A stretch of 64,000 nt of DNA, from positions 584,479-648,478 of the forward strand of contig CAVRPA010000008.1 of the NCBI GenBank assembly GCA_963723005.1, written 5' to 3'. The DNA is from an uncultured Acidobacteriota bacterium (lineage in GTDB: Bacteria > Acidobacteriota > Vicinamibacteria > Vicinamibacterales > UBA2999). Under the pieces are notes generated by a model, which did not search any database, had not been told where the DNA came from, and was given only the letters and a program-made list of their open reading frames with translations. This document shows, one piece after another, positions 9,995 to 58,363 of the stretch. Every line of letters begins with the position of its first letter. Positions within the stretch are counted from its first letter, which is position 1. Made by a program: the position numbers and the translations under genes.

Positions 9995-10015
9995 CCCCGT
10001 TGACTGTGGGGTGAG

Positions 10016-10834: not shown

Positions 10835-10865
10835 ACCCCGGCGCGCGCCCGCAGCGGCGCTGCTG

Positions 10866-15109: not shown

Positions 15110-15854
15110 CGATTCGGTTGGGATCCTGACCTTCACCCGTCCTCACGCGCGCAACGCGCTCACGTGGGACATGTACGAAGCGCTCGATCGCGCCTGCGCC
15201 GAGGCCGGCACCAGCGCCGGTCTGCGTGCGCTCATCATACGCGGCTCGGGCGGCTCGTTCGCGGCCGGCACCGACATCGCCCAGTTCGCCGGCTTCGCCT
15301 CGGGTGCGGACGGCGTGGCCTACGAGCGACGGCTCGACCGGATGATCGACACGCTCGAGCGGGTGAGAGTGCCGACCATCGCCGAGGTGGACGGCGTGGC
15401 GGCGGGCGGCGGCTGCCTGATCGCGCTCGCCTGCGACATTCGCGTCTGTTCGCCGCGGGCGAAGTTCGGCATCCCGGTGGCGCGCACGCTCGGCAACTGC
15501 CTGTCGATGGCCAACACCGTCCGCCTGCTGGACCTCGTCGGCCCGGCGCGCTTGCGCGACCTGATGCTGACCGGCCGGCTGGTGGACGCTACGGAGGCGC
15601 TCGCGCTTGGCTTCGCGACGCGCATCGTCGATGGGGACGCGCTGTCCACGCACGTCAGCGCGCTGGCGGCCGAACTGGCGTCGCGGGCGCCCAGCACCGT
15701 CATCGCCACCAAGGCCATGCTGGCGCGGCTGCGCGAGTTCCGCACCCCGCCCGAGGGATCCGCCGACGACATCATCGCCGCGTGTTACGGCAGCGACGAC
15801 TTCCGCGAGGGCGTGGCCGCGTTCAACGAGGGCCGCCCGCCAAAGTGGCGGTAG
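15078..15854 (+). CDS. enoyl-CoA hydratase/isomerase (crotonase) family protein
   Basis: 'ILTFTRPHARNALT', 'GSGGSFAAGTDI' and 'AEVDGVAAGGGCLIALACD' oxyanion-hole motifs. Confidence 0.85.
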   Translation: MPSSNVAWDIIDSVGILTFTRPHARNALTWDMYEALDRACAEAGTSAGLRALIIRGSGGSFAAGTDIAQFAGFASGADGVAYERRLDRMIDTLERVRVPTIAEVDGVAAGGGCLIALACDIRVCSPRAKFGIPVARTLGNCLSMANTVRLLDLVGPARLRDLMLTGRLVDATEALALGFATRIVDGDALSTHVSALAAELASRAPSTVIATKAMLARLREFRTPPEGSADDIIAACYGSDDFREGVAAFNEGRPPKWR

Positions 15855-15906
15855 GCGGATAGCGTCGGGAGGCGGGAGTCGGGAGTCGAGCGCCCAAGCC
15901 TCAAGC
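15855..15906. repeat. seven phased heptads (GAGGCGG/GAGTCGG/GAGTCGA ... AGCCTCA) filling a convergent spacer
   Basis: Read directly between the crotonase stop (15852-15854) and the transporter stop (15907-15909). Confidence 0.55.
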
Positions 15907-17148
15907 CTAAAACATCACCCAGCAGATCAGCGCCCCGATAACCGTCATCGACAGGCCCCACGCCAGCAGCTGATTGAACAGCTTGCGCGGGTCGGCGCCG
16001 GCAGGCAGCGCCGCGATGCAGAGCGCGCCGATCGTCGAGAGCGGGGAAAGGTCCACGAGATGGCCGCCCACCATCATGGCGGAGGCGATGCCCAGCGGAT
16101 CGCCGCCGCCCAGCCGCTCCACCAGGCCGGGGATGGTCGGCAGGAACGCAGGCAGCACCACTCCCGACGTGCTGCTGTACACCGACACCACTCCGGTCAC
16201 CAGGGCGACGATGCCGGTGACCGTGGACGGCGTCGAGATGCGCGCGAGCAGATCGGAGAAGAGCGCCATTCCCTGGGTCTTCTCCAGCACGCCGATCAGC
16301 ACCGTCACGCCGCACACCATCAGCACGACGCCCCACGGCATCTTGCGGATCGCCTCCTTCTCGTCCGCGGCGCCGGCCAGCGACAGCACCGCGGCTCCGG
16401 TGAGCGCCGCCATGCCGACCTGCAGATCCCAGCCGATCACGCCGGCGACGAGCGCGACGAGAATGCCGAGCGTCAGGAAATGCACGGGCGAGAACGGCTC
16501 CAGCCGCACCGCCTGGGTCTCGGCGATTTCCTTCGAGCCTTTGCGGAACAGCGCCGCGCCGCCGAAGATCAGGTAGGCGACGAGCGTGACCGCGGTGTGC
16601 GCCATCAGGTTGTTGGTGTAGGTGGCGAACTCGACGCCGTGCAGGCCGATGCGGTCCATGATGCCGTTGACGATCACGCCGGTGGGCGCGAACGGCGACA
16701 GGGCGCCGGCCTGAGCGCCGTTGCCCACCATCAGCGCCATCAGGAACGGAGGAACCGCGGCTTGCGCGCCCACCGCCATCGCCATCGGCGCCAGGATCGC
16801 CGTGGTCGAGATGTTGCCGGGGCCGATGCTCGAGAGCAGCACCGCCACCCCGAAGAACATCACCGGGATCAGGCCGGCGTTGCCGCGACAGACGTGGACC
16901 GCGCGCGCCGCCAGTCGTTCGAGCGTGCCATTGGCGGAGGCCATGCCGAAGAGCAGCGTCACGCCGGCCAGCGTCAGGAACAACTGCACCGGGAAGGTGC
17001 CGATCACCGTGTTGAGCGGCATGCCGCCGAGGTACACGCCGACAATCCACGCCAGAGCGAGCGACACCACGCCCACGTTGACCTTCGTCAGCATGCTCAG
17101 CGTGACGGCGGCGGCGAGCGCGATGAGAGAGATCCACGCAAGACTCAT
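15907..17148 (-). CDS. MatC-like dicarboxylate carrier (ion-transporter superfamily permease)
   Basis: 413 aa polytopic protein. 'FPVQLFLTLAGVTLLFGMASANGTLERL...RGNAGLIPVMFF' resembles the MatC N-terminal domain as I recall it. Family call from memory only. Confidence 0.6.
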   Translation of the reverse strand: MSLAWISLIALAAAVTLSMLTKVNVGVVSLALAWIVGVYLGGMPLNTVIGTFPVQLFLTLAGVTLLFGMASANGTLERLAARAVHVCRGNAGLIPVMFFGVAVLLSSIGPGNISTTAILAPMAMAVGAQAAVPPFLMALMVGNGAQAGALSPFAPTGVIVNGIMDRIGLHGVEFATYTNNLMAHTAVTLVAYLIFGGAALFRKGSKEIAETQAVRLEPFSPVHFLTLGILVALVAGVIGWDLQVGMAALTGAAVLSLAGAADEKEAIRKMPWGVVLMVCGVTVLIGVLEKTQGMALFSDLLARISTPSTVTGIVALVTGVVSVYSSTSGVVLPAFLPTIPGLVERLGGGDPLGIASAMMVGGHLVDLSPLSTIGALCIAALPAGADPRKLFNQLLAWGLSMTVIGALICWVMF

Positions 17149-17151
17149 GCT

Positions 17152-20035
17152 CTAGGGCTCCTCGAGGAGAGATCGGATCAGGACGGCGGGATGCGTGGCC
17201 TGCACGCCGGTGAAGTGGGCCACCTGGTGGCGGCACGAAGTGCCCGCCGCGGCCAGCACCCCGCCGGCCGGCAGGGCGCGCGCCGCCGGCAGCAGCTTCC
17301 GCTCGCCGATGGCCTGCGACACGCCGTAGTGATCGCAGGAGTAGCCGAACGAGCCGGCCATGCCGCAGCAGCCGGCATCGAGATCGGTGACCGTGGCGCC
17401 CGGGATGCGCCGGAGCAGCGCCGCGGCCGAGGCGCCGAGGCCCATCGACCGCTGGTGACAGTGCACGTGCAGCAGCACGTCGGACGGCCCGCCGGCCAGA
17501 GGCAGCGTCGCTCGCCCCGCGCCGACTTCGCGCTCCAGGTACTCCTCGAACAGGACGGATTGCCTGGCGACGACCTGGGCCTTCTCGCGCAGCGATCCCG
17601 CCAGGAGATCGGGGGCGTCCTCCCTGATGGCCGAGAGGCAGCTGGGCTCCACGAACACGATCGCCTGACCTTGCGACGCGCGGGGAAACAACGCCGCGAC
17701 GTTGCGGGCCGCCAGGTCGCGGGCGTCACCTAACAGGCCCTGCGAGATGAGTGGCCGTCCGCAGCACACGTGCGGCGCCAGCGCCGCGCCGATCCCGGCG
17801 CGGTCGAGCACCTCGAACGCGGCGACGCCAATCTCCGGCTCGACGTGCGAGGTGAACGTATCGGCGAACAGCACGGCGCGAGGCTCCGGCGTGCGCGCCC
17901 GCACGCCATTCAGTTGCGCACGCAAGGTGCGCCGGGCCCACTGCGGCGGCAGCCGGCGTCGGTCGATGCCCAGCATCGATTCGCCCAACCGCCGTCCCAG
18001 AGTGCTCGCCGAGATCGCGTTCACGATCGGGGCGAAGGCGCTGCCCCAACCAGCCAGCTCGTTGATGCGGCCGAAAGCCTGCACTTTGAGCGGCATCGCA
18101 TGGCGTTGCCAGTAGCCGGCCAGGAACTCGCTCTTGTAGCGGCCCACGTCCACGCCCACCGGGCACTCGCTCTTGCAGGCGCGGCACTCGAGACACAGGT
18201 CGAGTACCGCGTGGACGCCCTGATCGTCGAGCCCCGCCTCCGCCAGCCGTCCGCTGGTGGCCAGCCGCAGCACGTTGGCCCGGCCGCGAGTGGAGTGCGC
18301 CTCCTCGCGGGTGACCATGAACGACGGGCACATCGTGCCGTCGCGCGTTTTGCGGCACGCGCCGACGCCGCTGCACATCTCGACCGCGCGGCCGAAGCCG
18401 CCGAACGACGCGTAGTCGAAGAAGGTGGCCGGGTTGGGCGTCTGGTAGCCGGCGCCGTAGCGCAGGTGCGAGGTGATCGGCGGCGTGTCAACGATGCGCC
18501 CGGGGTTGAAGAGCCCCTGAGGATCGAAGGTCCGCTTCACGGTGCGGAACGCCTGGTATAGCTCTGTCCCGAACATCTGCTCGTTGAAGGCGCCGCGGAC
18601 CAGGCCGTCGCCGTGCTCGCCGGAGAGCGAGCCGCCGTATTCGAGGACCAGCTCCGCGACTTCCCGGGCGATCGACTCGAACCGGGCCACACCGTCGGCG
18701 GTCTTCAGGTCGATGACTGGCCGCACGTGGAGACAGCCGACCGAAGCATGGGCGTAGATGCCGGCGGCGGTCTGGTGGCGCTCGAGGACGCGGAGAAACC
18801 GTGCGATGTAGGCGCGCAGGTGCTCGGGCGCGACGGCGGTGTCCTCGACGAACGACACCGCCTTGCCGTCGCCCTTCATCGCCATCGACAGCCCGAGCGC
18901 GGCCTCGCGCAGGCTCCACACCTTCGCCTGAGCGCCGGCGTCGGTCAACGCGCGCGTGCGGCACGCGACGCCGCTCGCTCGCAGGTCGTGCTCGAGCGCC
19001 TCGAGCCGCGCCGGCAGCTCGTCGGCCTGATCGGCATAGAACTCGATGCAGAGCAGCGCCGAGCCGTCGCGCTGCACGATGGTCCGGCGGAGCGCGTCGA
19101 GGCCGGCGTTGTCGCGCGTGTGCCGCAGGATGAAGTCGTCCATCACCTCCACGGCGGCGGGACCGTGCCGGAGCACCAGCGGCGTTGCGCCGAGCGCGTC
19201 CAGCAAGTCGTCGAACTCCGCCGTCAGCAGCGCCTTTGCCCTGGGCAGCGGCACCAGACCCACCGTGGCTTCGATCACGAAGCCCAGGGTGCCTTCCGAG
19301 CCGACGATGATGCGCGAGAGATCCACGGGTTGCGCAGGATCGACGAAGGCGTCGAGGTTGTAGCCGCCGACGCGTCGCAGGAGCTTGGGGAAGCGACGCT
19401 CGATCTCACTCGCGTGGGCCTGCGCCAGCGAGGGGATCGCCCGGTACGCATCACCCTCGATGCCCTGTGCGGCGCAGGCGATGGCCAGATCTGCCGCGCT
19501 CAACGGACGGAGATGCGCCACACGGGCATCGGCCAGCACCACCTGCAGATCGCGAACGTGATCGATGGTCTTACCGTAGACGACCGAGCGGGCGCCGCTC
19601 GAGTTGTTCGCGATCATCCCGCCGACGGTGGCGCGGCTGGACGACGACACGTCCGGCGCGAAGCGGAGGTGATGTGGCTTGAGCGCGGCGTTCAGGTCGT
19701 CGAGCACCACGCCGGGCTGCTACCCGAGCCGTGCGCGCCTCCGGATCGATCGCGAGGACGCGGTTGAGGTACTTCGAGGTGTCGAGCACCAGTCCGGCGC
19801 CAATCGCCTGGCCGGCCTGCGAGGTGCCGCCCCCGCGCGGCGTCAGCGAAACGCCGTGACGGGCCGCCATCGCCACCGTCCGCACGACGTCGTCTGGGGA
19901 GCGCGGGACGATGACCCCGCGCGGCTCGATCTGATAGACGCTGGCGTCGGTCGCATACAGCGCGCGTGACGCGGCATCGAAGCGGACCTCGCCGTCGAGC
20001 ACGGCGCGGAGGTCGCGTTGCAGGAGATCGCTCAC
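17152..20035 (-). pseudogene. fused FAD-binding (GlcD/D-lactate dehydrogenase-like) and Fe-S (GlcF-like, CCG domain) oxidase with one frame disruption near 19720
   Basis: N-terminal ORF 19571..20035 (FAD PCMH domain, 'PRGGGTSQAGQ') and ORF 17152..19710 are colinear. The latter carries 'LCLECRACKSECP' 4Fe-4S and C-terminal 'CCG' motifs. Removing one base from GGGTAGCAG gives ...ARVQPGVVLDDLNAAL. Confidence 0.8.
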
Positions 20036-20107: not shown

Positions 20108-20142
20108 TTCCGCCTTCGGCCTTTTGCCTTGCGCCTTTCGCC
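20108..20142. repeat. five phased heptads TTnnGCC (TTCCGCC TTCGGCC TTTTGCC TTGCGCC TTTCGCC)
   Basis: Read directly in the spacer between the selenoprotein gene and the FAD/Fe-S oxidase gene. The same unit type closes the array at 20534-20561. Confidence 0.6.
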
Positions 20143-20176
20143 GAGTGGTGTCGCGCCCCTGAATCTGTCGGATGAC

Positions 20177-20407
20177 TCAGGAGGCCAGCGCGGCTCGTAC
20201 CGCCTGCACGACCTGGTCTTCCGCGGGGAAACCGGTCTTGCTTTTCTGCGCGACCACGTGATCGCCCACGCGGACGGAGAACTCGCCGCGGGCGCCTTCG
20301 ACCACGGCCGGATCGACACCCGTCGCTGCCTTGATGAGCGCGGCCACACGGGTCGCGCGCGGAAGGTAGTTTCAGACGCGGCAGTAACGGATTTCGATCT
20401 GGGGCAT
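20177..20407 (-). CDS. SelW/Rdx-family selenoprotein (CxxU), 76 residues with in-frame UGA at 20374..20372
   Basis: Minus-strand translation: MPQIEIRYCRV-U-NYLPRATRVAALIKAATGVDPAVVEGARGEFSVRVGDHVVAQKSKTGFPAEDQVVQAVRAALAS. The total is 231 nt, a multiple of 3. GAGG lies 4 nt upstream of the ATG. The Rdx-family pattern IxYCxxU...RA...L......GxFxVxV....K.TGxFP is present. Confidence 0.75.
20338..20360 (-). promoter_or_regulatory. putative bacterial SECIS hairpin
   Basis: RNA GCGCGCGACC-CGUGU-GGCCGCGC begins 11-12 nt after the UGA. GC-rich stem with two bulges and a G/U-containing apical loop. Folded by eye only. Confidence 0.4.
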
Positions 20408-20428
20408 AGGGCCTCGGGGGGGAAGACT

Positions 20429-20565
20429 GGTCTTAGGTCTTAGGTCTTAGGGTCTTGGGGCTTGGGGCTTGGGGCTTGGGGCTCGGGGCTTGGGGCTTGA
20501 GGCTCGAGACTTGCGGCCGTCTGCCGACTGCCGTTTTGCCTTCTGCCTTTAGCCTTTTGCCTTCC
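20429..20565 (-). repeat. array of about 19 phased heptads filling the whole spacer upstream of the selenoprotein gene
   Basis: Plus strand reads (GGTCTTA)x3, GGGTCTT, (GGGGCTT)x5 plus one GGGGCTC, GAGGCTC, GAGACTT, then TnTGCCn units. On the gene (minus) strand the order is AAGGCAA-type > AAGCCCC > AAGACCC > TAAGACC > start codon. Confidence 0.85.
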
Positions 20566-21683
20566 TACTGACTTTTCCCCCTGGCCGCAATCGGCCACAC
20601 GGCTTCGACCACATTACCGCGAAGCGCGTGAATCTGATCGTACAGGTTGACCGTGGGATCGCAGTGCGGCGGCACGAACTCGAGGCGGTCGCCGACCCTG
20701 ACGTCGCGGTCGACGTTGGTGAGGTCGAGCCGGCCGTGTTCGTCGCCGGCCCACGAATAGACCGCGCCGGGCAGGTCCACGGCGACGGGGGTGAACGGCC
20801 GGTCGGTGGCGAACGCCTTGTACCCGGCGTCCACAATCGCCAGTCCCGGGCGGCGGGAGATGACGGTCGCCACCACGGTGAGCGCCTGCTCGAAGTCGCG
20901 GTAGTCGGTGTTGTCCGGCCCGCCGATCTGGCCGTACTCCATGTCCATGAAGATGAAGCTGCCCGGCTGGATCTCGGTGACGCCGTCGATCTCGGCGTCG
21001 ATCCGGTAGGTGCCCGTCGATCCTCCCGTGACCAGCGGACAGTCGATGCCGGCGCGCTCGATCATCCGCCGGGTCTCCACCGCCTGCTTCATGCTGCCGC
21101 TGGTGCGCGTCCGGCGCGCGTCGAACGGCGCCGTGTGCGCGGCCGCCCCGTCGTAGGACTGCAGGCCGACGAACCGCACGCGCGGCTGGCGGGTGATGAA
21201 GCGCGTCAGGTCCAGGGCCGGCGCTCCGGGCGAAATGCCGGTGCGGCCGAAGTGCAGGTCCACGGCCAGGTTCACCTCGACGCCGGGAAACCGGCCGGCG
21301 GCGTCGCTCAGCTCGCGCACGTTCTGCTCGGATTCGACGATGAAGATCGTGTCGGGCGCGATCCGGGCCAGCTCCAGGGCCCGCTCGATCTTCCCCGCGC
21401 CAACCACCGCCGTCGTGATCAGCAGTCCCCGGATGCCGTGCGCCGCGAACACCTCCGCCTCGCTCAGGCGGGCGGTGCAGACGCCCACGGCTCCCGCCGC
21501 GATCAGGCGCCGGGCGATTTCCGGGCACTTGTGCGTCTTGCCATGGGGCCGGAACGCCTTGCCCCGCTCTCGCAGGAACCCCGTCATACGGGTGACATTG
21601 GCTTCGAACCGGTCCAGGTCCAGCAGCAGGGCAGGGGTGGGCACATTCGTCGCGGAACCGCATGGGCGCGGGCATGCTAGCAC
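20565..21683 (-). CDS. DSD1-family PLP-dependent enzyme (alanine-racemase-fold D-serine/D-threo-3-hydroxyaspartate dehydratase or D-threonine aldolase-like)
   Basis: '[13 protein letters not shown]...[15 protein letters not shown]' carries the PLP-lysine context. C-terminal 'EHGRLDL...[19 protein letters not shown]' is present. Confidence 0.75.
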
Positions 21684-21700
21684 TACTTCCGGGGAGCGGC

Positions 21701-23539
<1,839 letters not shown>

Positions 23540-23658
23540 GAAATCAGGGATCAGGGATCAGGGATCAGGGATCAGGGATCAGGAGCTCAAGCCCCAAGCC
23601 CCAAGCCCCAAGCCCCAAGCCCCAAGCCCCAAGCCCCAAGCCCCAAGCCTCAAGACCC
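23540..23658 (+). repeat. 17 phased heptads filling the lepA-lepB spacer: GAAATCA, (GGGATCA)x5, GGAGCTC, (AAGCCCC)x8, AAGCCTC, AAGACCC
   Basis: Counted base by base from the lepA stop (23537-23539) to 2 nt before the lepB ATG (23661). Confidence 0.9.
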
Positions 23659-23660
23659 CT

Positions 23661-24281
23661 ATGGCCGAGACGACGTTTCGAAAATCCACCGCCCGGGAGT
23701 ACTTCGAGTCCCTCGTCGTCGCGGTGATCCTGGCGCTGTTCGTCCGCACTTTCGGGTTCCAGGCCTTCAAGATTCCAACCGGGTCGATGGAGCCGAACCT
23801 GCTCGTCGGCGATCACCTGCTCGTCAACAAGTTCATCTTCGGGCCGGCCACCTCCGGGCTCGAGCGCACGCTGCTGCCAATGCGGCAGGTGGAGCGCGGC
23901 GAAGTGCTGGTCTTCAAGTTTCCCGAGGAGCCCGAGCGCGACTTCATCAAGCGGGTGATCGGGTTGCCCGGCGAGACGCTGGAGTACAAGGACCAGCGCG
24001 TGTTCATCAACGGCATGCCGCTGATCGAGCCCTACGCGCACTATCAGCTGCCGGCAACGGGTGAAGGCAACAGCAGCGACCCTCGCGTCCGCTACGGTCC
24101 GGTGACCATCCCCGCCGACCACTACTTCATGATGGGCGACAATCGCGACGACTCGCAGGACAGCCGTTACTGGGGCTTCCTGCCGGCCAGCTACGTCAAG
24201 GGCCGCGCGCTCTTCATCTACTGGTCGTTCGGCGGGCCGCAGGGCACACGGTTCGATCGCCTGCTGCACCAGATCCACTAA
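23661..24281 (+). CDS. lepB: signal peptidase I
   Basis: 'FKIPTGSMEPNLLVGD' (Ser box), 'DFIKRVIGLPGE' (Lys box) and 'GDNRDDSQDSRYWG'. ATG at 23661, since the upstream part of ORF 23526..24281 is the repeat array. Confidence 0.9.
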   Translation: MAETTFRKSTAREYFESLVVAVILALFVRTFGFQAFKIPTGSMEPNLLVGDHLLVNKFIFGPATSGLERTLLPMRQVERGEVLVFKFPEEPERDFIKRVIGLPGETLEYKDQRVFINGMPLIEPYAHYQLPATGEGNSSDPRVRYGPVTIPADHYFMMGDNRDDSQDSRYWGFLPASYVKGRALFIYWSFGGPQGTRFDRLLHQIH

Positions 24282-25312
24282 CCTCGACTGCGCCCGATGA
24301 GCAGCAGTACCACCGAACGCCAGAGATCCGCTGAGCGCTGCGGTCACGTACGAGCGGGCGAGCCATGACGTGCGGCCGAGCGCCAGAGCGAAGGTGGCGA
24401 CCAACGGCACCCAGAGGCCATCCACGCCTTGATAGGTGCTCCCGATGATGCCGACCCGGACTACGGGCTGCTTCCTCGCACCGAACAATTCTGGCAGGTG
24501 GAGCCGAGCGAGCGCGCTCAGGCGAGTGGGGATACCGGCCGGGTCCCAGCAGAACCGCTGTTGGACCTCGGCGGCGTGAGTCGGCACACCAGCTTCGAGG
24601 TAGCTCGTGCCCGGTCCACGGGCTGAGGCGTACGGCACCAGCACCTGCACGCCCTGCCACACGCCGATCGCGACCAGCCCCGCGAGAGCCAGTCCGCGCA
24701 GGCGTTCGATCGAGAACAAGCGGTGCGTCCACGCCTCCACGGCGATCAGGGCCACCAGACCATAGAACGTGAACTCGCGGTTGAGCACCCCCACGCCCAG
24801 TACCAGCCGAGCCACAACGGCCGGTCGCGCAGGAACCAGATCAGCAGGACATAGATGAAGGGCTCGATGTTGCAGCCGTTGGCCTGCACCAGCCGGCTGG
24901 CAGCGGACGGCGGCGGCAGAATGAAGAACAGCGCGGCGAGCCCGGCGTGCCACGGGCGAAGTCCCACGAACCGCTCAAGGCCGGCCAGCAGCAGGATGAC
25001 CGCTGCCACGTTCAGGAGCAGAATCGGCAGCTTGAGAGTGGCTACCGACACGCCCCCGATCAGGAAGAAGGGCGCGACCAGCCATGACTCCACGCCGAGC
25101 AGATACTGCTGTCCGTAGAAGAACAACGGGAAGGCGCGGCCCTCGAGCAGATGTTTCGCCATGAGGCCGACGATCGCCTGGTCGGCGTCGAAATGAGACT
25201 GCTCCCAGCCGACGAAGACGATGGCGCGGAAGGCGATCAGCGTGGTTGCGAGTGCGATCACGGCGGCCCGCTCCCGCGCTCTCGGCGTCGTGGTCGCGGC
25301 GTCGGTGCCCAT
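24278..25312 (-). pseudogene. polytopic GT-C/ArnT-like membrane glycosyltransferase-like protein, frame-disrupted; 3' end uncertain
   Basis: ORF 24746..25312 ('DADQAIVGLMAKHLLEGRAFPLFFYGQQYLLGVESW') continues colinearly in the frame of ORF 23565..24953 after a G-run near 24780. A third frame gives a plausible C-terminus 'VVLLLIGRSRG*' ending at 24278-24280. Confidence 0.45.
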
Positions 25313-25319
25313 CGGGCGC

Positions 25320-25330
25320 TATACTATACT
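25320..25330. promoter_or_regulatory. TATACTATACT element, candidate shared -10 region for two divergent leaderless transcripts
   Basis: The intergenic region is only 26 nt (25313-25338). TATACT ends 8 nt before the plus-strand ATG at 25339. TATAGT/TAGTAT on the other strand lies 8-10 nt before the minus-strand ATG at 25312. Neither side has a Shine-Dalgarno sequence. Confidence 0.45.
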
Positions 25331-25338
25331 GGCGCTCG

Positions 25339-26964
25339 ATGGCGCCGGCGCGTTCGAGGGCAGCAAGCGTCGGGGTCGGCGTCGGTGTCGCGGCGCTGGC
25401 CATTTACGTCGTGAGCCTCGCGCCCGAGTTGGCGCCCCGAGGCGGCCTCGAAAGCGACAGGCCGTTCCAGGCCACCGATCCCGTGTGGCTCCAGCAGGTG
25501 CTGTCGTTTGCCGGCAGTGCGGAGAGCTGGTGGCCCTCGGGTGCCCTGGCCAAGGCCTGGACCTCGTTGCCGGGCTCATCGAACTTCAACTTCGCATCTG
25601 CGGCACTGGCGGCGAGTGCGGCGGCGCTGCTTACGCGGCTGATCACCGGCATGAGCTCGACACTGATGGCCGTAGCGGCCGGCCTCGGCTTTGCGCTGTC
25701 ACCTTCCGTGTGGGCTGTTGCCGTGGCCGCCGAGGGCAGCGTCGGCGCCTTGCTCATTGCCGTCGCGGTCCTTACCTCGCTGCTGTGTCTGAACGAATGG
25801 CAGCGCTCCGGGCGCGCTGCCGCACTGCTGGGTGTCGGTGGCGCCCTGATGGTGGCGGCTTGCGAAGACGTCACTGCGGCCATCGTCGCTGCACCGATGC
25901 TGATGTACGCCGCGCCCCACACGAGGCCGTTCCGACGATGGTGGATGCTGGCGATGGTGGGCGGCGTTGGTTTCGCGGCGGTGTACCAGTGGTGGCAGCT
26001 GCGCGCCTTGCTCGGTGCGACCGCCGTTGATGGAGGGGTGCTGCCAGACGTCGGCCGCGCCTGGGTCGAGGTCTGGCGATGGGGTTTCCCGTCCGAGCAA
26101 TCCGTGGCGGCCATCGGCGGCGCTCGCGCGCGAGCTCTCACGTCGGCAGTGACCGAGAACCTGGGACTCTTTGGCATCTTGGTGGCCGCACTTGGGCTGC
26201 GTTGGCACCTATCGACCCTGGCGATCCTCGCGCTCTGCGCGGGCGCGGCACTCGGGCCGCTGGGAGCACCTTGGGACCCGACGACCCGCAGCGTGCTGCT
26301 GCTGACACCGCTCTGGTACCTCATTGCCATGGGGATCGCGCGCGTGGCGTCGTGGACCAGCGCGGGAGGGCGTCCGGTGGCCCTCGCGCTGTGCGGCTTG
26401 TTGCCGGCCCTCCAGATCCTGCGGCTGGGCGCCGAGCCCCACACTCTGGTCGATCGGCCGGCCGGCGGGATGCTCGGAGCGTTTGCCTTGGCGCCGACTG
26501 GGCCCGCGGACCTCATTGCGGACCGCGCTCGCGTTGCCCGTCTGCTGATCCTCAGCAATCGCCGGCGTCCCACGAGCGCTCGATGGGAGCTGGCGCCGCA
26601 GGACCCCGTGCGTCTCGCGCAGGCGATCGAACTGGGCCGGACGATCGTGGCGACGGGGCCGGCGGCCGACCGGCTATCGCTCTCGGGACTGACCGGCGAG
26701 ACGAGGTCAGTCAGAGGGCGGACCCTGAGCGAGGTGCTGGCGTCAACGGATTCGCGGGCGCTGGTTGGCGTCGTGGCGACTCCTGGTGCTTTCGCAGAAC
26801 AGCCTGCGGCAGCCAATCGTCTGGCGGAGCTCGTTGGAGAACGGCGGGCGGCGACGCCGCTGCCCGAAGGCGCATTCGGGTTGCTCGCACGTCGATCCGG
26901 GTTCACGTCGCAGCTGGTCACAGCCGCGTTCGCGTCGAGTCGCCGGCGCGGACCTGGCTTCTGA
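25339..26964 (+). CDS. hypothetical polytopic membrane protein with soluble C-terminal region
   Basis: Many Ala/Leu/Gly-rich TM segments over the first roughly 370 residues. No motif I can name. ATG at 25339 within ORF 25246..26964. Confidence 0.5.
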   Translation: MAPARSRAASVGVGVGVAALAIYVVSLAPELAPRGGLESDRPFQATDPVWLQQVLSFAGSAESWWPSGALAKAWTSLPGSSNFNFASAALAASAAALLTRLITGMSSTLMAVAAGLGFALSPSVWAVAVAAEGSVGALLIAVAVLTSLLCLNEWQRSGRAAALLGVGGALMVAACEDVTAAIVAAPMLMYAAPHTRPFRRWWMLAMVGGVGFAAVYQWWQLRALLGATAVDGGVLPDVGRAWVEVWRWGFPSEQSVAAIGGARARALTSAVTENLGLFGILVAALGLRWHLSTLAILALCAGAALGPLGAPWDPTTRSVLLLTPLWYLIAMGIARVASWTSAGGRPVALALCGLLPALQILRLGAEPHTLVDRPAGGMLGAFALAPTGPADLIADRARVARLLILSNRRRPTSARWELAPQDPVRLAQAIELGRTIVATGPAADRLSLSGLTGETRSVRGRTLSEVLASTDSRALVGVVATPGAFAEQPAAANRLAELVGERRAATPLPEGAFGLLARRSGFTSQLVTAAFASSRRRGPGF

Positions 26965-26977
26965 CGTCCCGCCGTCG

Positions 26978-28042
26978 TTGGATCCGGGTGCGGGGGTCCG
27001 GCTGGTCGCCGATCCTTCCGGTGCGAGGGTTGAACTCGGCGCCCGGGAACTGGCGCAGGTGGATGGCGGGGCCATCGTGGTCACATGGTCGCCGGTGAGC
27101 GGCGACGTCTCTTGGTCAGTCCTCGACCGCCGCGCCGGCCTGACCGCATCGTGGGAGCACGCTGGTTGGCGCTTTTCACGCCTCGGCCCGCAGCGGGCGT
27201 GTGTGACGGCCACCAGCGGCCAGTGGGCTGACATCACGAACAGCACGAGGGCGGCTCGGATCGGCGTCCAGTTGGCGCGTGGCCAGCGGCTCCGGCTCTA
27301 CCTGGCCCGGGATCGCGGCCTCTTCGTTCGCGCCGCAGCCTTTCCGGATCGTCATCCTCCTGAAGTCGCAGTCTTGCGCTGGGACCGCGAGAATCCTGAA
27401 CAGGAACGCTCGGCAGTCGCGGCACTTGACGCTGCCGGGGCGCGACTGCGCACGGCTGCGGCGACCGCGCGCTTCATCTGGCAGGTGACAATCACGGCAT
27501 CTCCGTCCGAGGACGGCCTGTTCGCGGTCGGTCTGGGCGGTACCCCCGATTGGGCGCAAGCACGGGTCGAGTCCCCTGCCGGCGAGTCCGCCGTCATTTG
27601 CCCTGGGGTCGCCGGTGCGCAGCTGTTCGCCCGCGACGACATTCGAGAGGACGTGATCTCGCTGACCGACGGCGACAGCTTCGGTGCCGGGTGGCTGGAG
27701 ATGGAGCGTGAAGGCGGCCAGCGTTGGCGGCAGACGCGCAACGGCGAAAGCGATCTGTTCGTCCGGCTGGATGTGGCTCGAACCCTGACGATGACGGTCA
27801 CAACCAGGCCTGGCGCGCCTCCGAATACGGCGGGCCGCATCGGCTTGCGCGTGAACGGAGCACTGCTCGACTTTCGCGACCTGCAAGGCGGCGGCAACGA
27901 CTACACATGGACGGTGCCCGAGAGTCAGTGGCGGGCGGGAACGAATCGTCTGGTCCTCGTCACGACGCCGATCGACTCCTCGCAGGGTAATGAAGTCGTG
28001 TCGCCGGTTCTCCACGTCACCAGCCTGCGTTTTCGACGCTGA
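26978..28042 (+). CDS. hypothetical protein; either a separate TTG-initiated gene or a frame-shifted continuation of the preceding membrane protein
   Basis: ORF 26765..28042 overlaps the end of 25339..26964 in another frame. Coding-looking sequence starts about 'LDPGAGVRLVADPSGARVELG'. No recognisable domain. Confidence 0.4.
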   Translation: MDPGAGVRLVADPSGARVELGARELAQVDGGAIVVTWSPVSGDVSWSVLDRRAGLTASWEHAGWRFSRLGPQRACVTATSGQWADITNSTRAARIGVQLARGQRLRLYLARDRGLFVRAAAFPDRHPPEVAVLRWDRENPEQERSAVAALDAAGARLRTAAATARFIWQVTITASPSEDGLFAVGLGGTPDWAQARVESPAGESAVICPGVAGAQLFARDDIREDVISLTDGDSFGAGWLEMEREGGQRWRQTRNGESDLFVRLDVARTLTMTVTTRPGAPPNTAGRIGLRVNGALLDFRDLQGGGNDYTWTVPESQWRAGTNRLVLVTTPIDSSQGNEVVSPVLHVTSLRFRR

Positions 28043-28138
28043 CCTCGACGGTCGCCGCCGGCCCGTCGTACCGATCAAGCGCCAGTGTGACCGCGCCCAC
28101 CGCCAGCGAGGCCGTCTGGACACCGTTAGCGTCGATTC

Positions 28139-29323
28139 TTACGGAGCGATCCAGTCCGTGAGCGCGACCAGGCGCCCGCCCTGCATCTCGCAGATGAAAC
28201 CGGCCCGCTGGGCGTGGTGATTCGTCGCCGAGAAGCTCACGTTCGGCAACACTCCGCCGGCGTCCCAGTTGACGATACCCTCCATCGCGTCGATGAATCG
28301 CTCGCGCGTCAGCGTCTTCCCCGCGCGCTCGACGCCTTCCACGACCAGCCGGCCGAAGGTGTAGCCGTAAAGCGTATAGCGATCGACCTGACGGCCTGGG
28401 TAGGTGCGCGCGAGGGCAGACCGGTAACGCTCGACGCCAGGCGCCTGGCTCCGTTCCGGATCCGGGTAATGGCAGAAACCAAGCGTCCCATCGGCGCTGC
28501 CGCCGGGCACCGTCAGCGAGGCCTCGTCGGTGAGCGGGCCGGCCGACACCATCCGTCCGCGCCAGCCGGCGCGCGCTCGCGCCGCCATCAGGGCCTGCGC
28601 CTGTTCGGGATAGATGGCCATCACGATCGCATCGGGGCGGGTCGCCACCAGCGCCGCGAACTCCGAAGACAGGTCCGTGGGCTTGCGCGCGGTGATCGGC
28701 ACCGCGCCGGCGACCTCGTACCCGAACTCGCTCGCATGCGCGGTCAGGCGATCACGGAAGGTCAGCCCGTAGGCGTTGGGATCGTGCGCGATCGCAAGCC
28801 GCGTGAGCTTGCGGTCCTTCGACAGGTAGCGGAACATCACCGCCGCCTCGCCCTCGAAGCGCGGGAACGACGTGAAGAGGTAACGCTCGCCCTCGGAGGA
28901 CACCAGCGCGGTGTGCGGGAACATCACCGGCACCCGCTGAGACCGCGCGTAGGCCGCGATGTCGCCGATCGCCGGACCGCTGAAGTTGACCAGGGCAAAG
29001 ACGTGGTCGTCGTCGATCATCTGGCGCGCCACGGCCAGCACGTCGGCGGGCTCGCCGCTCTTCCGCCGTCGATCGGCCCACACGAATCGCCGGCCATGAA
29101 CGCCGCCGCGTGCGTTCGCCTCCTCGAATGCCAGCCGGAACCCCTGGTTCTCGCCGTCCAGCGACAGCGAGCCGACACCTGCTTCGACGCCGATTGCGAT
29201 TGTGGTATCGGTGATTCCCTCGGGCGACGGCTGTTCGGCGGCCGTTCCCGCGAGCGCGGTGACGCCGAGAAGGAGCGCCCAGAGCGTGCGGCGCGAGAGC
29301 AGCGGGCTGTGCATGACGACCAC
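28139..29323 (-). CDS. ABC transporter substrate-binding protein (type I periplasmic binding fold, LivK/branched-chain amino acid-like)
   Basis: Signal peptide 'LLSRRTLWALLLGVTALAGTAAEQ'. Overall pattern 'IAIGVEAG...FEEANARGGVHGRRF...DDHVFALVNFSGP'. Confidence 0.75.
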   Translation of the reverse strand: MVVMHSPLLSRRTLWALLLGVTALAGTAAEQPSPEGITDTTIAIGVEAGVGSLSLDGENQGFRLAFEEANARGGVHGRRFVWADRRRKSGEPADVLAVARQMIDDDHVFALVNFSGPAIGDIAAYARSQRVPVMFPHTALVSSEGERYLFTSFPRFEGEAAVMFRYLSKDRKLTRLAIAHDPNAYGLTFRDRLTAHASEFGYEVAGAVPITARKPTDLSSEFAALVATRPDAIVMAIYPEQAQALMAARARAGWRGRMVSAGPLTDEASLTVPGGSADGTLGFCHYPDPERSQAPGVERYRSALARTYPGRQVDRYTLYGYTFGRLVVEGVERAGKTLTRERFIDAMEGIVNWDAGGVLPNVSFSATNHHAQRAGFICEMQGGRLVALTDWIAP

Positions 29324-29415: not shown

Positions 29416-30399
29416 TCAGCGCTCCGCCTTCTCCTGGATGACCGGTCCGGTCCGATGGCGCGTCGGCGGCAACGACCGCAAGTAGCGGTAGATGGCGCGC
29501 AGATCCTCGTCGGTCAGCCGCGCGAACGCCCCCCACGGCATCGGTGTACCCGCAACCGTGGGACCGCTGCGGAAGCGCGCGACGAACGCGTCCTCGGTCC
29601 AGTTGCCGATGACGCTGGTGTCGGCATCCGGCGTGAGATTCGGCGGCACGAAGACCTTGGTGTCGTCAAAGGCGACATCCATCCGCTGGCCGCCGCCGAA
29701 GGCCGGCCCCACCAGGGCGCCGTCCGGTCCGCGGTCGGTGTGGCACGACGCACACGACGACACATGATTCGCCAGATATGCGCCGCGCTCGACGGTCGCG
29801 CCGCGCGGGCTCGTCGTGGGCGCCGCCTTCGCGGGCTGGGTCGGCGACACCGCGAATGCCATCAGCGTCTTGCCGAACATCGTCAGCCGGTGCTCGGGCA
29901 CCTGGTGCGAGACCGCCGGCCGCGATCGCAGGTACGAAGCGACCGCCGACAGATCCTCGTCGGTGAGCTGGAACTCCATCAGCGGGAATGCGGCGCGACC
30001 GTCCGCACGCACGCCGAAGCGCAACACGCGCGCCAGTTCCGCGTCGCTCCGCCCGCCGATGCCGGTGCCGTTGTCGGGGGTCAGGTTCGGCGAGTAGAAA
30101 TCACCGAACGGCAGCCGGAACAGGTGATGCCCGGTGAGCGGCAGCCGCTCTCCCTTGTCCAGCCGATCCCATTCCTCGCGTGGCACGTGGCAGTAAGCGC
30201 ATGCCGCCGCGCTGTAGACCAGGTATTCACCGCGCGCCACGACGTCGGGGTCGTGGCTGGCCGCGATGGAGGGATAGGGTGCCTCGAATCGCCGCGTCCA
30301 TCGCCACTCGATCGCGGCGAGCGCTGCCACCACGAGCACCAGCCCGGTGACTGCCGCGCCGCCCCACACCCGCCGCCAATTCATCCGCTGTAGACTCAT
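29416..30399 (-). CDS. membrane-anchored dihaem c-type cytochrome
   Basis: Two CxxCH motifs (CAYCH, CASCH) and an N-terminal TM 'VWGGAAVTGLVLVVAALAAI'. Start at ATG 30399, or at 30384. Confidence 0.8.
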   Translation of the reverse strand: MSLQRMNWRRVWGGAAVTGLVLVVAALAAIEWRWTRRFEAPYPSIAASHDPDVVARGEYLVYSAAACAYCHVPREEWDRLDKGERLPLTGHHLFRLPFGDFYSPNLTPDNGTGIGGRSDAELARVLRFGVRADGRAAFPLMEFQLTDEDLSAVASYLRSRPAVSHQVPEHRLTMFGKTLMAFAVSPTQPAKAAPTTSPRGATVERGAYLANHVSSCASCHTDRGPDGALVGPAFGGGQRMDVAFDDTKVFVPPNLTPDADTSVIGNWTEDAFVARFRSGPTVAGTPMPWGAFARLTDEDLRAIYRYLRSLPPTRHRTGPVIQEKAER

Positions 30400-30988
30400 G
30401 ACCCTGTCTGCCTTCCCAGTTTTGCGTGCGTATCTCGAAGCTCGCGCCTCATTCACCGAGGACGAGATGGCATTCGTGCGCGACCGGTTCGATTCGACAA
30501 CGCTGGCCGCCGGCGCGTTCCTGCAGCGCGCAGGCGACGTGACCACGCACGCCGCCTTCGTGGCGACGGGGTGCCTGCGCAGCTACGTGATCGACGCGAA
30601 GGGCAAGGAGCACATCGTCCAGTTCGCCCCGGAGACCTGGTGGCTCGCCGACGGCACCAGCCTCACCAAGGGGACGCCGTCGCCCTACTTTTTCGATGCC
30701 ATCGAGGTGTCGGAACTGCTGCTGATCGACCCGCGCTCGCACCAGGAGCTCGTTGACCAGGTGCCTGGCTTTGCCGCCGCGTTCCGCAACGGCCTGCAGC
30801 GTCACAGCGCCGCGAAGGACCAGCGAATTGTGACGGCGTTGGCCGCGTCGGCCGAGGAGCGCTATCTCGAGTTCATGACGACCTACTCCTCGATCGCGCA
30901 ACGGGTGCCGCAATGGATGGTCGCGTCGTACCTCGGCGTCTCGCCCGAGACCGTCAGCCGCATCCGCAAGAGGTTGTCGCGGCGGTAG
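30398..30988 (+). CDS. Crp/Fnr-family transcriptional regulator
   Basis: cNMP-binding-like N-terminal domain and C-terminal HTH 'QRVPQWMVASYLGVSPETVSRIRKRL'. Confidence 0.85.
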   Translation: MTLSAFPVLRAYLEARASFTEDEMAFVRDRFDSTTLAAGAFLQRAGDVTTHAAFVATGCLRSYVIDAKGKEHIVQFAPETWWLADGTSLTKGTPSPYFFDAIEVSELLLIDPRSHQELVDQVPGFAAAFRNGLQRHSAAKDQRIVTALAASAEERYLEFMTTYSSIAQRVPQWMVASYLGVSPETVSRIRKRLSRR

Positions 30989-31130
30989 CCGGTGGTCGCG
31001 CGCCGGTCCCACGCCCCCTCGCATCGTCATGACGTGCAACGGTAGCGTGCGACGTCCGCCGCGGCCATTGATCTGGATCAAGAACGGCAGGTGGCGGGCC
31101 CCCCAGATGCGGAGGCCCGGGCGCCGGCAG

Positions 31131-58295: not shown

Positions 58296-58300
58296 ACCTC

Positions 58301-58363
58301 AGGCCCCAAGCCCCAAGCCCCAAGCCCCAAGCCTCAAGACTCAAGACCCAAGACCCAAGACCT
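58301..58363 (+). repeat. nine phased heptads AGGCCCC, (AAGCCCC)x3, AAGCCTC, AAGACTC, (AAGACCC)x2, AAGACCT
   Basis: Counted from 6 nt after the stop (58293-58295) to 2 nt before the ATG at 58366. Confidence 0.85.

What the first reader, a model, noticed from the sequence alone, without database searches (positions are those of the whole stretch)
23540..23660. lepA-lepB spacer is made entirely of 17 phased heptanucleotide repeats and lacks a Shine-Dalgarno sequence
- The 121 nt between the lepA stop and the lepB ATG read GAAATCA, (GGGATCA)x5, GGAGCTC, (AAGCCCC)x8, AAGCCTC, AAGACCC, then CT-ATG.
- A single 7-nt register is kept across two different repeat units.
- No GGAGG-like element precedes lepB, so its leader is a C/A-rich tract.
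- The antisense strand is (GGGGCTT)n, a textbook G-quadruplex motif (at least four G4 runs with 3-nt loops). The sense RNA/DNA is i-motif-capable.
- Heptameric tandem intergenic repeats are known, as far as I recall, from heterocystous cyanobacteria (STRR elements with CCCCAAT-like units). I am not aware of a description in this kind of high-GC genome.
- Possible roles are an unstructured CA-rich translational leader, transcription pausing or attenuation between lepA and lepB, a protein-binding array, or a copy-number-variable contingency tract.
Basis: partly seen in the sequence, partly recalled or inferred. Interest (0 to 1): 0.7.

Follow-up and report, generated by a model that had tools for sequence, protein, structure and literature searches.

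The report
Hypervariable 7-base repeat spacer, lepA–lepB
The gap between two housekeeping genes of a soil acidobacterium is filled by a fast-changing array of 7-base repeats, a repeat type already described in other bacteria whose function is still unknown, so this is a clear new example and not a new kind of element.

Summary
Window 23540-23660 is 17 in-phase heptamers plus CT, lying between the lepA stop and the lepB ATG, and no SD lies within 75 nt of that ATG.

It is one of four heptamer arrays in the window. Period 7 is the only period from 4 to 13 with any array. The same bias appears in 295 kb of unselected related contigs (16 arrays against 0-3 for other periods).

The source is a Vicinamibacterales (Acidobacteriota) genome. 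A 98-99% identical contig carries the same spacer two units shorter, and nearly all indels between the two lie in the arrays. Orthologous spacers range from overlapping stop/start codons to 121 nt and use unrelated units.

Array placement follows the published polarity of Xanthomonas/Nostoc G-rich heptamer repeats (Rehm 2015). The class was also surveyed by Mrázek 2007.

Best reading: a slippage-driven, hypermutable heptanucleotide microsatellite. It has pushed lepB away from its ancestral SD and left an unstructured, C-rich, SD-less leader. I found no evidence for sequence-specific function.

It is a new member of a known kind, of modest interest.

The parts
21662..23539 (+). lepA (EF4), stop codon TAG at 23537-23539
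   Evidence: Pfam GTP_EFTU, EFG_C, LepA_C
23528..23534 (+). GGAGAAG at the lepA 3' end: the probable ancestral Shine-Dalgarno of lepB, now 127 nt from the ATG
   Evidence: Relatives with a 2-nt spacer read ggagacgaaTAGCCatg, which puts GGAG about 10 nt before the lepB ATG. Its role as an SD is inferred, not shown.
23540..23546 (+). Degenerate first unit GAAATCA
23547..23581 (+). (GGGATCA)x5, G-rich on the sense strand, directly after the stop codon
   Evidence: A weak three-tetrad rG4 is possible in isolation (-12.2 vs -9.4) but brings no gain in the full context.
23582..23588 (+). Junction unit GGAGCTC, in phase with both arrays
   Evidence: In L199 the junction differs.
23589..23644 (+). (AAGCCCC)x8, C-rich on the sense strand. 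The template strand is (GGGGCTT)8, which matches the G4 motif.
   Evidence: L199 has about 5-6 copies.
23645..23660 (+). Degenerate units AAGCCTC and AAGACCC plus CT, abutting the lepB ATG with no SD
23661..24281 (+). lepB (signal peptidase I). The true start is ATG 23661.
   Evidence: Pfam Peptidase_S26. The N-terminus MAETTFRK is conserved in relatives.
20429..20564 (-). Second composite heptamer array, about 20 units in one register. It fills the spacer between a D-Ser-dehydratase-like gene and an Rdx/SelW-like gene. On the sense (minus) strand it is G-rich (AAGGCAA-type) after the stop, then AAGCCCC, then TAAGACC before the start.
   Evidence: It is 36 nt shorter in L199.
58297..58363 (+). 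Third array: (CCCCAAG)x4, then CCTCAAG, ACTCAAG and (ACCCAAG)x2. It ends 2-3 nt before the ATG of a GMC oxidoreductase, which has no SD.
15861..15908 (+). Fourth, short array in a convergent spacer: GTCGGGA-type units followed by GCCCAAG/CCTCAAG units
   Evidence: The orthologous spacer in L083 has (AAGCCCC)4 abutting the same stop codon.

Best explanation
The spacer is a composite heptanucleotide microsatellite. It belongs to the class called long simple-sequence repeats (LSSRs), which includes cyanobacterial STRRs and the Xanthomonas/Nostoc G-rich heptamers. The genome is a Vicinamibacterales (Acidobacteriota) genome whose intergenic DNA is generally prone to 7-nt tandem duplication. The array grows and shrinks by whole units, most likely through strand slippage or unequal exchange in a 7-nt register, and does so much faster than point substitutions accumulate. 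Units drift by point mutation and are re-homogenised locally, so one register runs through several unit types. The ancestral lepA-lepB junction was tight: a 2-nt or overlapping spacer, with an SD inside the lepA 3' end. In this lineage the array expanded between that SD and the lepB ATG. lepB is therefore still co-transcribed with lepA, but it is now preceded by about 120 nt of repeats whose last about 75 nt form an unstructured, C/A-rich, G-poor, SD-less leader. Translation of lepB must then rely on SD-independent initiation on an open leader, which appears common in this clade. I see no evidence that the array's sequence or length is itself selected. Selection seems to act only as a filter on where arrays are tolerated and in which orientation. 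Shown here: the anatomy, the period-7 specificity, the clade-wide occurrence, the strain-level unit gain and loss, the placement polarity, and the lack of structure, terminator or promoter. Inferred: slippage as the mechanism, co-transcription, SD-independent initiation, and near-neutrality.
For: Period 7 is the only period with arrays in the window. It also dominates 295 kb of related contigs chosen without regard to repeats: 16 arrays against 0-3 for periods 4-12, with about 11 different units. L199 encodes an identical LepB and is 98-99% identical in DNA. Its lepA-lepB spacer is 107 nt against 121 nt (difference 2x7) and its upstream array spacer is 116 against 152 nt. 24 of 26 gap openings lie in the two arrays, while about 4 kb of flanks have 2 single-base indels and 28 substitutions. 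The orthologous spacers vary widely: at 94% LepB identity, about 3 ATCAGGG-like units plus (CCCCAAG)3; at 87%, (CCCAAGA/T)6; at 85%, (GGATCAG)3; at 80%, 10 nt with no array; at 72-74%, 2 nt with GGAG inside lepA. 21 of 61 loci have an overlap or a spacer of <=2 nt, and distant relatives use unrelated heptamers (TGGCTAA, GGGCTGA, GAATTAA). The RNA fold is no better than shuffles (z=+0.9) and the C-only leader is unstructured. There is no promoter, terminator or Rfam hit in the spacer. SD use is weak in the clade. Placement matches the published class: 89 co-directional, 16 convergent and 5 divergent spacers, and arrays lie a median 15 nt from the ORF 5' of the G-rich strand against 73.5 nt on the 3' side (80 vs 28, p=6e-7) (PMC4692102).
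Against: Placement is clearly non-random (the polarity rule, and rarity in divergent spacers). Something beyond neutral slippage therefore shapes the arrays, and a positive function cannot be excluded. Heptamer arrays recur in the same lepA-lepB spacer across deep divergence with unrelated units, which could mean a favoured spacer state and not only a mutational hot spot. lepB is normally essential, yet it tolerates losing its SD, which hints that the leader supports good translation. Why the unit length is seven is unexplained. No expression data were available.
Confidence: 0.6

Rival explanations
1. The array is a selected, tunable translational leader. The unstructured C/A-rich tract acts as an SD-independent (ribosomal protein S1-type) ribosome landing pad or enhancer. 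Slippage-driven changes in copy number act as a rheostat for lepB output relative to lepA.
For: In three of three cases in the window, C-rich units abut the start codon on the sense strand. In the pooled loci, 30 of 38 skewed arrays (neutral ones excluded) within 30 nt upstream of a start are C-rich on the sense strand. The leaders are unstructured. The ancestral SD is displaced, yet lepB is retained. TAACTGA heptamers in Beggiatoaceae likewise sit just upstream of starts where RBSs are rare (PMC4679880). Translation enhancement has been speculated for Nostoc heptamers (bioRxiv 10.1101/2022.06.06.494920).
Against: The upstream-C and downstream-G rules are mathematically the same single geometric rule, which holds regardless of gene orientation. 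The bias therefore does not specifically point to leaders. Relatives manage with G-rich-only arrays, no array, or overlapping genes. There is no conservation of unit or length.
Confidence: 0.2
2. The array acts through non-B DNA. The (GGGGCTT)n template strand folds into G-quadruplexes (with an i-motif on the other strand) and slows or blocks RNA polymerase between lepA and lepB, or it affects replication.
For: The antisense strand has a canonical G4 motif, and two tandem four-tetrad G4s are predicted (-64.9 vs -36.5 kcal/mol, RNA parameters as a proxy). 4 of the 7 G4 motifs in the window lie in heptamer arrays. Related GGGNATC repeats form G4s in vitro (PMC4692102).
Against: In the unselected sample, only 7 of 16 arrays have a unit with a run of >=3 G or C. 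Units such as ACCTGAT, AAAATGC and AAGAATT cannot form G4s. Orthologous spacers swap G4-capable for incapable units, or lose the array. There is no preference for four copies here. Rehm et al. could not identify a regulatory role.
Confidence: 0.1
3. The C-rich, G-poor leader is a Rho loading (rut) site. It gives conditional polarity between lepA and lepB, with termination when lepB is poorly translated.
For: The lepB leader is the most extreme C>G 78-nt window on its strand in the 64 kb (41 C, 11 G). The other two C-rich leaders rank first and second on their strands. The RNA is unstructured and the region between the lepA stop and the lepB start is untranslated.
Against: The evidence is composition only and is an automatic consequence of the unit. 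Relatives have G-rich-only arrays or no spacer. An obligatory terminator in front of a normally essential gene is unlikely. The Rho specificity of this phylum is unknown.
Confidence: 0.07
4. The array is a binding site for a heptad-recognising regulator, as with ToxR on the TTTTGAT repeats of ctxAB or SARP regulators on heptameric direct repeats.
For: It consists of regular direct repeats. Three units span 21 bp, about two helical turns. A binding partner has been speculated for Nostoc repeats (bioRxiv 10.1101/2022.06.06.494920).
Against: There are two unrelated units in one spacer, about 11 unit types in the clade and unrelated units in orthologous spacers. The arrays avoid divergent (promoter) spacers. 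No promoter is predicted in the spacer.
Confidence: 0.02
5. The array is an assembly artefact or a translated low-complexity N-terminal extension of LepB.
For: The lepB frame is open through the array back to TTG 23526. Arrays often end contigs in other assemblies.
Against: An independent assembly (L199) and several relatives have arrays at the same site. Spacer lengths (121, 107, 48, 49, 25, 10 and 2 nt) do not preserve frame. The LepB N-terminus MAETTFRK begins at the annotated ATG in relatives. The units contain no stop in any sense frame, so the open frame carries no information.
Confidence: 0.01

Closest known systems
G-rich heptameric repeats GGGAATC / GGGGA(C/T)T of Xanthomonas and Nostoc (Rehm et al. 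2015, PMC4692102)
   Same: Heptamers with a G3-4 run. [quoted passage not shown] Length and sequence vary extensively between close relatives, and the associated genes are housekeeping genes. All of these were reproduced here.
   Different: The units differ (GGGATCA and GGGGCTT), and so does the phylum (Acidobacteriota). There is no preference for four copies here (5 and 8). The arrays are composite, fill the whole spacer in one register, and include many non-G4 units in the same clade.
Long simple sequence repeats (LSSR) of prokaryotes, heptanucleotide class (Mrázek, Guo & Shah 2007, as summarised in PMC4679880 and PMC4692102)
   Same: Period 7 is the dominant long-unit SSR in large, high-GC, non-pathogen genomes. 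The arrays are mostly non-coding. Polymerase slippage is the proposed origin.
   Different: That survey was taxon-wide and descriptive. I could not read it directly, so I do not know whether it flagged Acidobacteria. A full-text search for Acidobacteria + heptamer + tandem repeats + intergenic found nothing.
Cyanobacterial STRR elements (STRR1, CCCCAAT-type; from memory, Mazel et al. 1990)
   Same: Tandem intergenic heptamers. The STRR1 unit differs from CCCCAAG by one base.
   Different: STRRs are defined in heterocystous cyanobacteria with low-GC genomes. No homology or shared origin is implied, and the same unit can arise independently in any heptamer-prone genome.
TAACTGA direct repeats of marine Beggiatoaceae (MacGregor 2015, PMC4679880)
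   Same: Heptamer arrays lying a few nucleotides upstream of start codons, in spacers where canonical RBSs are rare. They occur in front of essential genes, and no functional pattern was found in the downstream genes.
   Different: Essentially one unit dominates that genome, with short arrays of 2-6 copies. The unit contains stop codons in all frames, whereas AAGCCCC and GGGATCA contain none on the sense strand.
Phase-variable contingency loci (SSRs in pathogens) and ToxR-bound TTTTGAT heptads of ctxAB
   Same: Slippage-driven copy-number change of a tandem repeat near a gene start.
   Different: Those repeats sit in ORFs or at spacing-critical promoter positions of surface or virulence genes and switch expression on and off. 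This one lies in an intercistronic spacer of housekeeping genes, with no spacing-critical element detected.

Membership tests
Heptanucleotide LSSR / bacterial heptamer microsatellites | Head-to-tail tandem copies of a 7-nt unit, longer than expected by chance | tested here: met
   17 phased units. Period 7 is the only period 5-13 with >=3 exact copies in the window.
Heptanucleotide LSSR / bacterial heptamer microsatellites | Genome- or clade-wide excess of period 7 over neighbouring periods, mainly non-coding | tested here: met
   16 arrays against 0-3 in 295 kb of unselected related contigs. All four window arrays are intergenic. The whole genome was not available.
Heptanucleotide LSSR / bacterial heptamer microsatellites | Copy-number instability between close relatives | tested here: met
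   The length differences are 14 nt and 36 nt against a 98-99% identical contig. 24 of 26 indels lie in the arrays.
Rehm-type G4-forming heptamer repeats | Unit with a G3-4 tract; at least four tracts in tandem (G4 motif) | tested here: met
   (GGGATCA)5 on the sense strand and (GGGGCTT)8 on the antisense strand. G4 is predicted for the latter.
Rehm-type G4-forming heptamer repeats | Polarity: the G-rich strand lies close to its 5' neighbouring ORF; enriched between aligned ORFs and depleted between divergent ORFs | tested here: met
   Median distances 15 vs 73.5 nt (80 vs 28 arrays, p=6e-7). Spacer types: 89 co-directional, 16 convergent, 5 divergent.
Rehm-type G4-forming heptamer repeats | Consensus GGGNATC / GGGGA(C/T)T and preference for four units | tested here: not met
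   The units are GGGATCA and GGGGCTT, with copy numbers 5 and 8. This is the same kind of repeat but not the same sequence family.
Rehm-type G4-forming heptamer repeats | G4 / i-motif formation in vitro | not testable with these tools
   This needs CD or thioflavin-T assays on (GGGGCTT)4 and (GGGATCA)4 oligonucleotides.
Cyanobacterial STRR | Heptamer families STRR1-3 in heterocystous cyanobacteria | tested here: not met
   The host is Vicinamibacterales (about 80% nt synteny to L083). The unit differs from STRR1 by one base (STRR1 recalled from memory).
Phase-variation contingency locus | The repeat lies in an ORF or between promoter elements, so that unit changes switch a (usually surface) gene on and off | tested here: not met
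   The array is intercistronic between lepA and lepB. No promoter is predicted in it. Frame is irrelevant because it is non-coding.
Intrinsic terminator / attenuator | A stable GC-rich hairpin followed by a U-tract, or alternative conserved structures | tested here: not met
   No terminator-like site lies in the spacer. The MFE is not better than shuffles, z=+0.9. There is no Rfam hit.
Rho utilisation (rut) site | About 70-80 nt of unstructured, C-rich, G-poor, untranslated RNA | tested here: inconclusive
   The composition criterion is met and extreme (41 C, 11 G; top-ranked in the window), and the RNA is unstructured. Rho dependence cannot be tested in silico.
REP/BIME, MITE, CRISPR | Palindromic units, terminal inverted repeats, or repeats interspaced by unique spacers | tested here: not met
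   The array is pure head-to-tail direct repeats with no spacers.

The most novel reading that the evidence does not exclude
In Vicinamibacterales (and perhaps in all heptamer-rich bacteria), heptamer arrays are functional, polar boundary elements of transcription units. Any polymerase leaving an ORF first makes G-rich RNA and any polymerase entering one makes C-rich RNA. On this reading, the lepB leader is a slippage-tunable, SD-independent translation/Rho-coupling module that sets the LepB:LepA ratio, which would make it a rheostat on housekeeping genes as opposed to an on/off switch on contingency genes.
Probability: 0.1. Interest if true: 0.65.

Novelty: new member of a known kind. Interest (0 to 1): 0.32.

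Why it matters
Why bacterial genomes favour 7-nt tandem repeats, and why the repeats sit with a fixed polarity next to ORFs, has been open since 2007-2015. This locus does not answer those questions. It does extend the phenomenon to Acidobacteriota with new units, and it shows that the published polarity rule holds across many more lineages.

It also offers an unusually clean natural series. The same lepA-lepB junction runs from overlapping or 2-nt coupled to 10, 25, 48, 107 and 121 nt of repeats, and in the longer versions the ancestral SD is progressively displaced. That series could be used directly to test whether such arrays affect translational coupling, Rho polarity or transcription.

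There is a practical side too. These arrays break short-read assemblies and confuse start-codon and RBS prediction in this clade.

Tried and rejected
1. Hairpin between the G-rich and C-rich halves. The MFE is a ladder of 3-bp GGG:CCC helices, but it is no better than dinucleotide shuffles (z=+0.9) and the ensemble is diffuse. Across loci, G->C and C->G composites are equally rare (4 vs 3). Rejected.

2. The strand bias as evidence for RNA-level selection. The two rules, 'C-rich before starts' and 'G-rich after stops', are algebraically one geometric rule that holds in all four spacer types. The bias therefore cannot discriminate RNA-level from DNA-level causes.

3. G4 as the reason the arrays exist. 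Most units in an unselected sample cannot form G4s.

4. A translated N-terminal extension of LepB from TTG 23526. Spacer lengths in relatives do not preserve frame, and the N-terminus is conserved at the ATG.

5. Horizontal spread of (AAGCCCC)n. The unit occurs in many phyla, but a heptamer-prone genome can generate any unit, and the loci share no flanking similarity apart from one syntenic relative. I found no support for transfer, and did not pursue it further.

6. Known RNA families, tRNAs, promoters and terminators in or near the spacer: none found.

7. Reading Mrázek et al. 2007 directly: the paper is not held in the library. Its content is cited second-hand from PMC4679880 and PMC4692102.

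8. A look-up of the exact LepA protein found nothing. Only the LepB look-up gave the strain-level relative.

9. My first GC3-only gene map confused sense and antisense frames. I replaced it with a GC3>GC1>GC2 rule. Start codons remain approximate, so distances to starts are rough.

Full report
**Observation**

The lepA stop TAG (23537-23539) is followed by GAAATCA, (GGGATCA)x5, GGAGCTC, (AAGCCCC)x8, AAGCCTC, AAGACCC and CT, and then the lepB ATG at 23661. That is 17 heptamers in one register plus 2 nt, 121 nt in all. TRF reports two adjoining period-7 arrays with 100% and 95% matches. Pfam confirms lepA (GTP_EFTU, EFG_C, LepA_C) and lepB (Peptidase_S26). No SD-like motif lies within 75 nt of the ATG.

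**More than chance, and not alone**

- In the 64-kb window (68% G+C), period 7 has six exact arrays of >=3 copies. Periods 5, 6 and 8-13 have none and period 4 has one. A degenerate-repeat scan gives five period-7 regions and none for any other period from 4 to 12.
- The other arrays lie at 15861-15908 (a convergent spacer), at 20429-20564 and at about 58297-58363.
- The 20429-20564 array fills the spacer between a D-Ser-dehydratase-like gene and an Rdx/SelW-like gene, both on the minus strand. It has about 20 units in a single register, morphing GTCTTAG > GGGCTTG > AGGCTCG > CTGCCGA > TTTGCCT.
- The 58.3-kb array ends 2-3 nt before the ATG of a GMC oxidoreductase.
- In all three start-proximal cases, the AAGCCCC-type C-rich unit is on the sense strand of the downstream gene.

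**Source organism and clade-wide bias**

- Window 7900-19311 is syntenic and about 80% identical to a Vicinamibacterales MAG contig, L083. The window therefore comes from Acidobacteriota, order Vicinamibacterales.
Many are Vicinamibacterales, Luteitalea or other Acidobacteriota, but Phycisphaerae, Gemmatimonadales, Lysobacteraceae, Burkholderiales, Streptomyces and some Cyanobacteria also appear.
- For an unbiased test I used 80 lepB loci from metagenomes. These were chosen by protein similarity and total 295 kb. Period 7 gives 16 arrays of >=3 exact copies; periods 4-12 otherwise give 0-3. The arrays use about 11 different units, including AGGGATC, ACCTGAT, AACGCCC, AAAATGC, AAGCCCC and AAGAATT.

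**Hypervariability**

- A contig encoding an identical LepB (L199) is 98-99% identical to window 20109-24282.
- Between conserved anchors, the lepA-lepB spacer is 107 nt in L199 against 121 nt in the window (difference 2x7). The upstream array spacer is 116 against 152 nt.
- 24 of the 26 gap openings in the 4.2-kb alignment fall inside the two arrays. The flanks have two single-base indels and 28 substitutions.
- The arrays therefore change by unit gain and loss much faster than point mutations accumulate, and they are not an assembly artefact.

**Orthologous lepA-lepB junctions**

| LepB identity | Locus | Spacer |
|---|---|---|
| 94% | L119 | about 3 ATCAGGG-like units + (CCCCAAG)3, 48 nt |
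| 87% | L120 | (CCCAAGA/T)6 |
| 85% | L121 | (GGATCAG)3 |
| 80% | L123 | 10 nt, no repeat |
| 72-74% | L125, L128, L129 | 2 nt: ggagacgaaTAGCCatg |

- 21 of 61 loci have an overlap or a spacer of <=2 nt.
- Several distant relatives have arrays of unrelated heptamers (TGGCTAA, GGGCTGA, GAATTAA).
- The 2-nt junctions place a GGAG inside the lepA 3' end about 10 nt before the lepB ATG. The window retains GGAGAAGACTAG (23528-23539), so the array has expanded between the probable ancestral SD and the start codon.
- Spacer lengths do not preserve reading frame, and the N-terminus MAETTFRK is conserved at the ATG. The open frame from TTG 23526 is therefore not a translated extension.

**Placement rules**

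I used a crude GC-frame gene caller that recovers lepA, lepB and their neighbours correctly. I applied it to 200 arrays in 99 high-GC sources.

- Within 30 nt upstream of a start, the sense strand is C-rich in 30 arrays and G-rich in 8. Within 30 nt after a stop, it is G-rich in 51 and C-rich in 18 (p=5e-4 and 9e-5).
- Flanking genes are co-directional in 89 cases, convergent in 16 and divergent in 5.
- These two rules are algebraically one geometric rule: on either strand, the G-rich side of an array abuts the ORF on its 5' side. The rule holds in all four spacer types (left boundary G 56 vs C 17; right boundary C 53 vs G 27).
- The median distance is 15 nt to the ORF 5' of the G-rich strand, against 73.5 nt on the 3' side (80 vs 28 arrays, p=6e-7).
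- This is the pattern Rehm et al. reported for GGGAATC and GGGGA(C/T)T repeats in Xanthomonas and Nostoc: 28 vs 160 nt, 'irrespective of the ORFs orientation', depletion between divergent ORFs, and extensive length variation between close relatives (PMC4692102).
- Because the rule does not depend on gene orientation, it cannot by itself show RNA-level selection.

**Structure and signals**

- The sense RNA folds into a ladder of 3-bp GGG:CCC helices (-41.5 kcal/mol). This is no better than dinucleotide shuffles (z=+0.9) and the centroid is essentially open.
- The C-only GMC leader is unstructured.
- G->C and C->G composite arrays are equally rare across loci (4 vs 3), so there is no selection for a hairpin.
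- No sigma-70-like promoter or intrinsic terminator is predicted in the spacer, and no Rfam family matches it. This fits co-transcription, as does the conserved lepA-lepB adjacency.
- The template strand (GGGGCTT)n can form two tandem four-tetrad G4s (-64.9 vs -36.5 kcal/mol, RNA parameters as a proxy). The sense RNA gains nothing from G4 formation in context.
- More than half of the arrays in the unselected sample have units that cannot form G4s, so G4 formation is not what defines these arrays.
- The last 78 nt of the leader are the most extreme C>G window on their strand in the 64 kb (41 C, 11 G). The two other C-rich leaders rank similarly. This is a rut-like composition, but it follows automatically from the unit.
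- SD use is weak in this clade: 23% of predicted first starts carry GGAG/GAGG/AGGA at -16 to -5, against 12% of internal controls, with a modest peak at -14 to -8. An SD-less lepB is therefore not exceptional here.

**Interpretation**

- The most economical account is a slippage-driven, hypermutable heptanucleotide microsatellite of a known class. It is filtered by selection as to where and in which orientation it is tolerated.
- At this locus it has turned a tightly coupled lepA-lepB junction into a long, unstructured, SD-less intercistronic leader.
- The mechanism (replication slippage or unequal exchange in a 7-nt register) and the near-neutrality are inferred. The unit-wise instability, the period specificity and the placement rules are shown.
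- Published experimental work has not established a function for such repeats. Rehm et al. found none. A Nostoc reporter study saw roughly 2-3-fold effects and speculated about an unidentified binding partner and translation enhancement (bioRxiv 10.1101/2022.06.06.494920). MacGregor proposed translational regulation for TAACTGA repeats that lie just upstream of start codons where RBSs are rare (PMC4679880).
- The rivals cannot be excluded in silico. The tunable translational leader is the most plausible, followed by template-strand G4 and Rho loading. A sequence-specific binding array is disfavoured by the unit turnover.

**Novelty and score**

- Heptamer SSR excess in large high-GC genomes and the polarity rule are already published. 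A full-text search found no report linking Acidobacteria with heptamer tandem repeats.
- This is a new member of a known kind, with new units, a new phylum and a particularly clean comparative series at one housekeeping junction.
- Interest is modest (0.32). The underlying questions, why seven and why the polarity, remain open, and this locus gives good material for experiments without being a surprise in itself.

Noticed in passing
window 20177-20407, minus strand (in-frame TGA at about 20372-20374): A small gene directly downstream of the 20.4-kb array reads MPQIEIRYCRV*NYLPRA...AALAS. With the TGA read as Sec/Cys it matches Pfam Rdx (SelW/SelT-like, 3e-11). It is a probable CxxU selenoprotein. 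A hairpin starts about 12 nt after the UGA but is not better than shuffles. The gene caller used for L199 annotated only the 56-aa part downstream of the TGA.
   Followed up: partly
window 24283-28139 and about 29460-31127: Two segments (3.86 kb directly 3' of lepB, and about 1.7 kb) are absent from the 98-99% identical contig L199. The ORFs in the first segment have no Pfam hits, and my GC3 gene caller calls genes over only a small part of it (24746-25318). These look like strain-specific insertions or deletions of unknown nature.
   Followed up: partly
window 58366-59960: The GMC oxidoreductase behind the 58.3-kb array is split across two frames. The FAD-binding N-terminus is in 58366-59274 and GMC_oxred_C is in 58551-59960. 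This is a frameshift, which could be a pseudogene or a sequence error.
   Followed up: partly
loci L016, L024, L031, L037, L038, L043, L047, L048, L064, L068, L069, L078, L079: At least 12 of the first 80 (AAGCCCC)4 genome hits lie within about 120 nt of a contig end. These arrays commonly terminate short-read assemblies, so their abundance and length are probably underestimated in MAGs.
   Followed up: no
L083 4560-4600 vs window 15861-15908: An orthologous convergent spacer (enoyl-CoA hydratase / MatC-like transporter) carries (AAGCCCC)4 abutting the transporter's stop codon in the 80%-identical relative. The window has only degenerate GCCCAAG/CCTCAAG units plus a GTCGGGA-type array. The position persists while the sequence turns over.
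   Followed up: partly
lep loci L121, L134, L143, L148, L150, L161, L163 (lepA stop region): In many relatives the array starts at, or includes, the lepA stop codon, for example TAA(TGGCTAA)n, TGA(GGGCTGA)n and TAG(GGATCAG)n. Because 7 is coprime with 3, such units place a stop in all three frames every 21 nt. Whether this is selected, or simply reflects nucleation at the ORF end, was not tested.
   Followed up: no
window 1-64000: The whole 64 kb contains no tRNA gene and no Rfam family at gathering threshold.
   Followed up: yes
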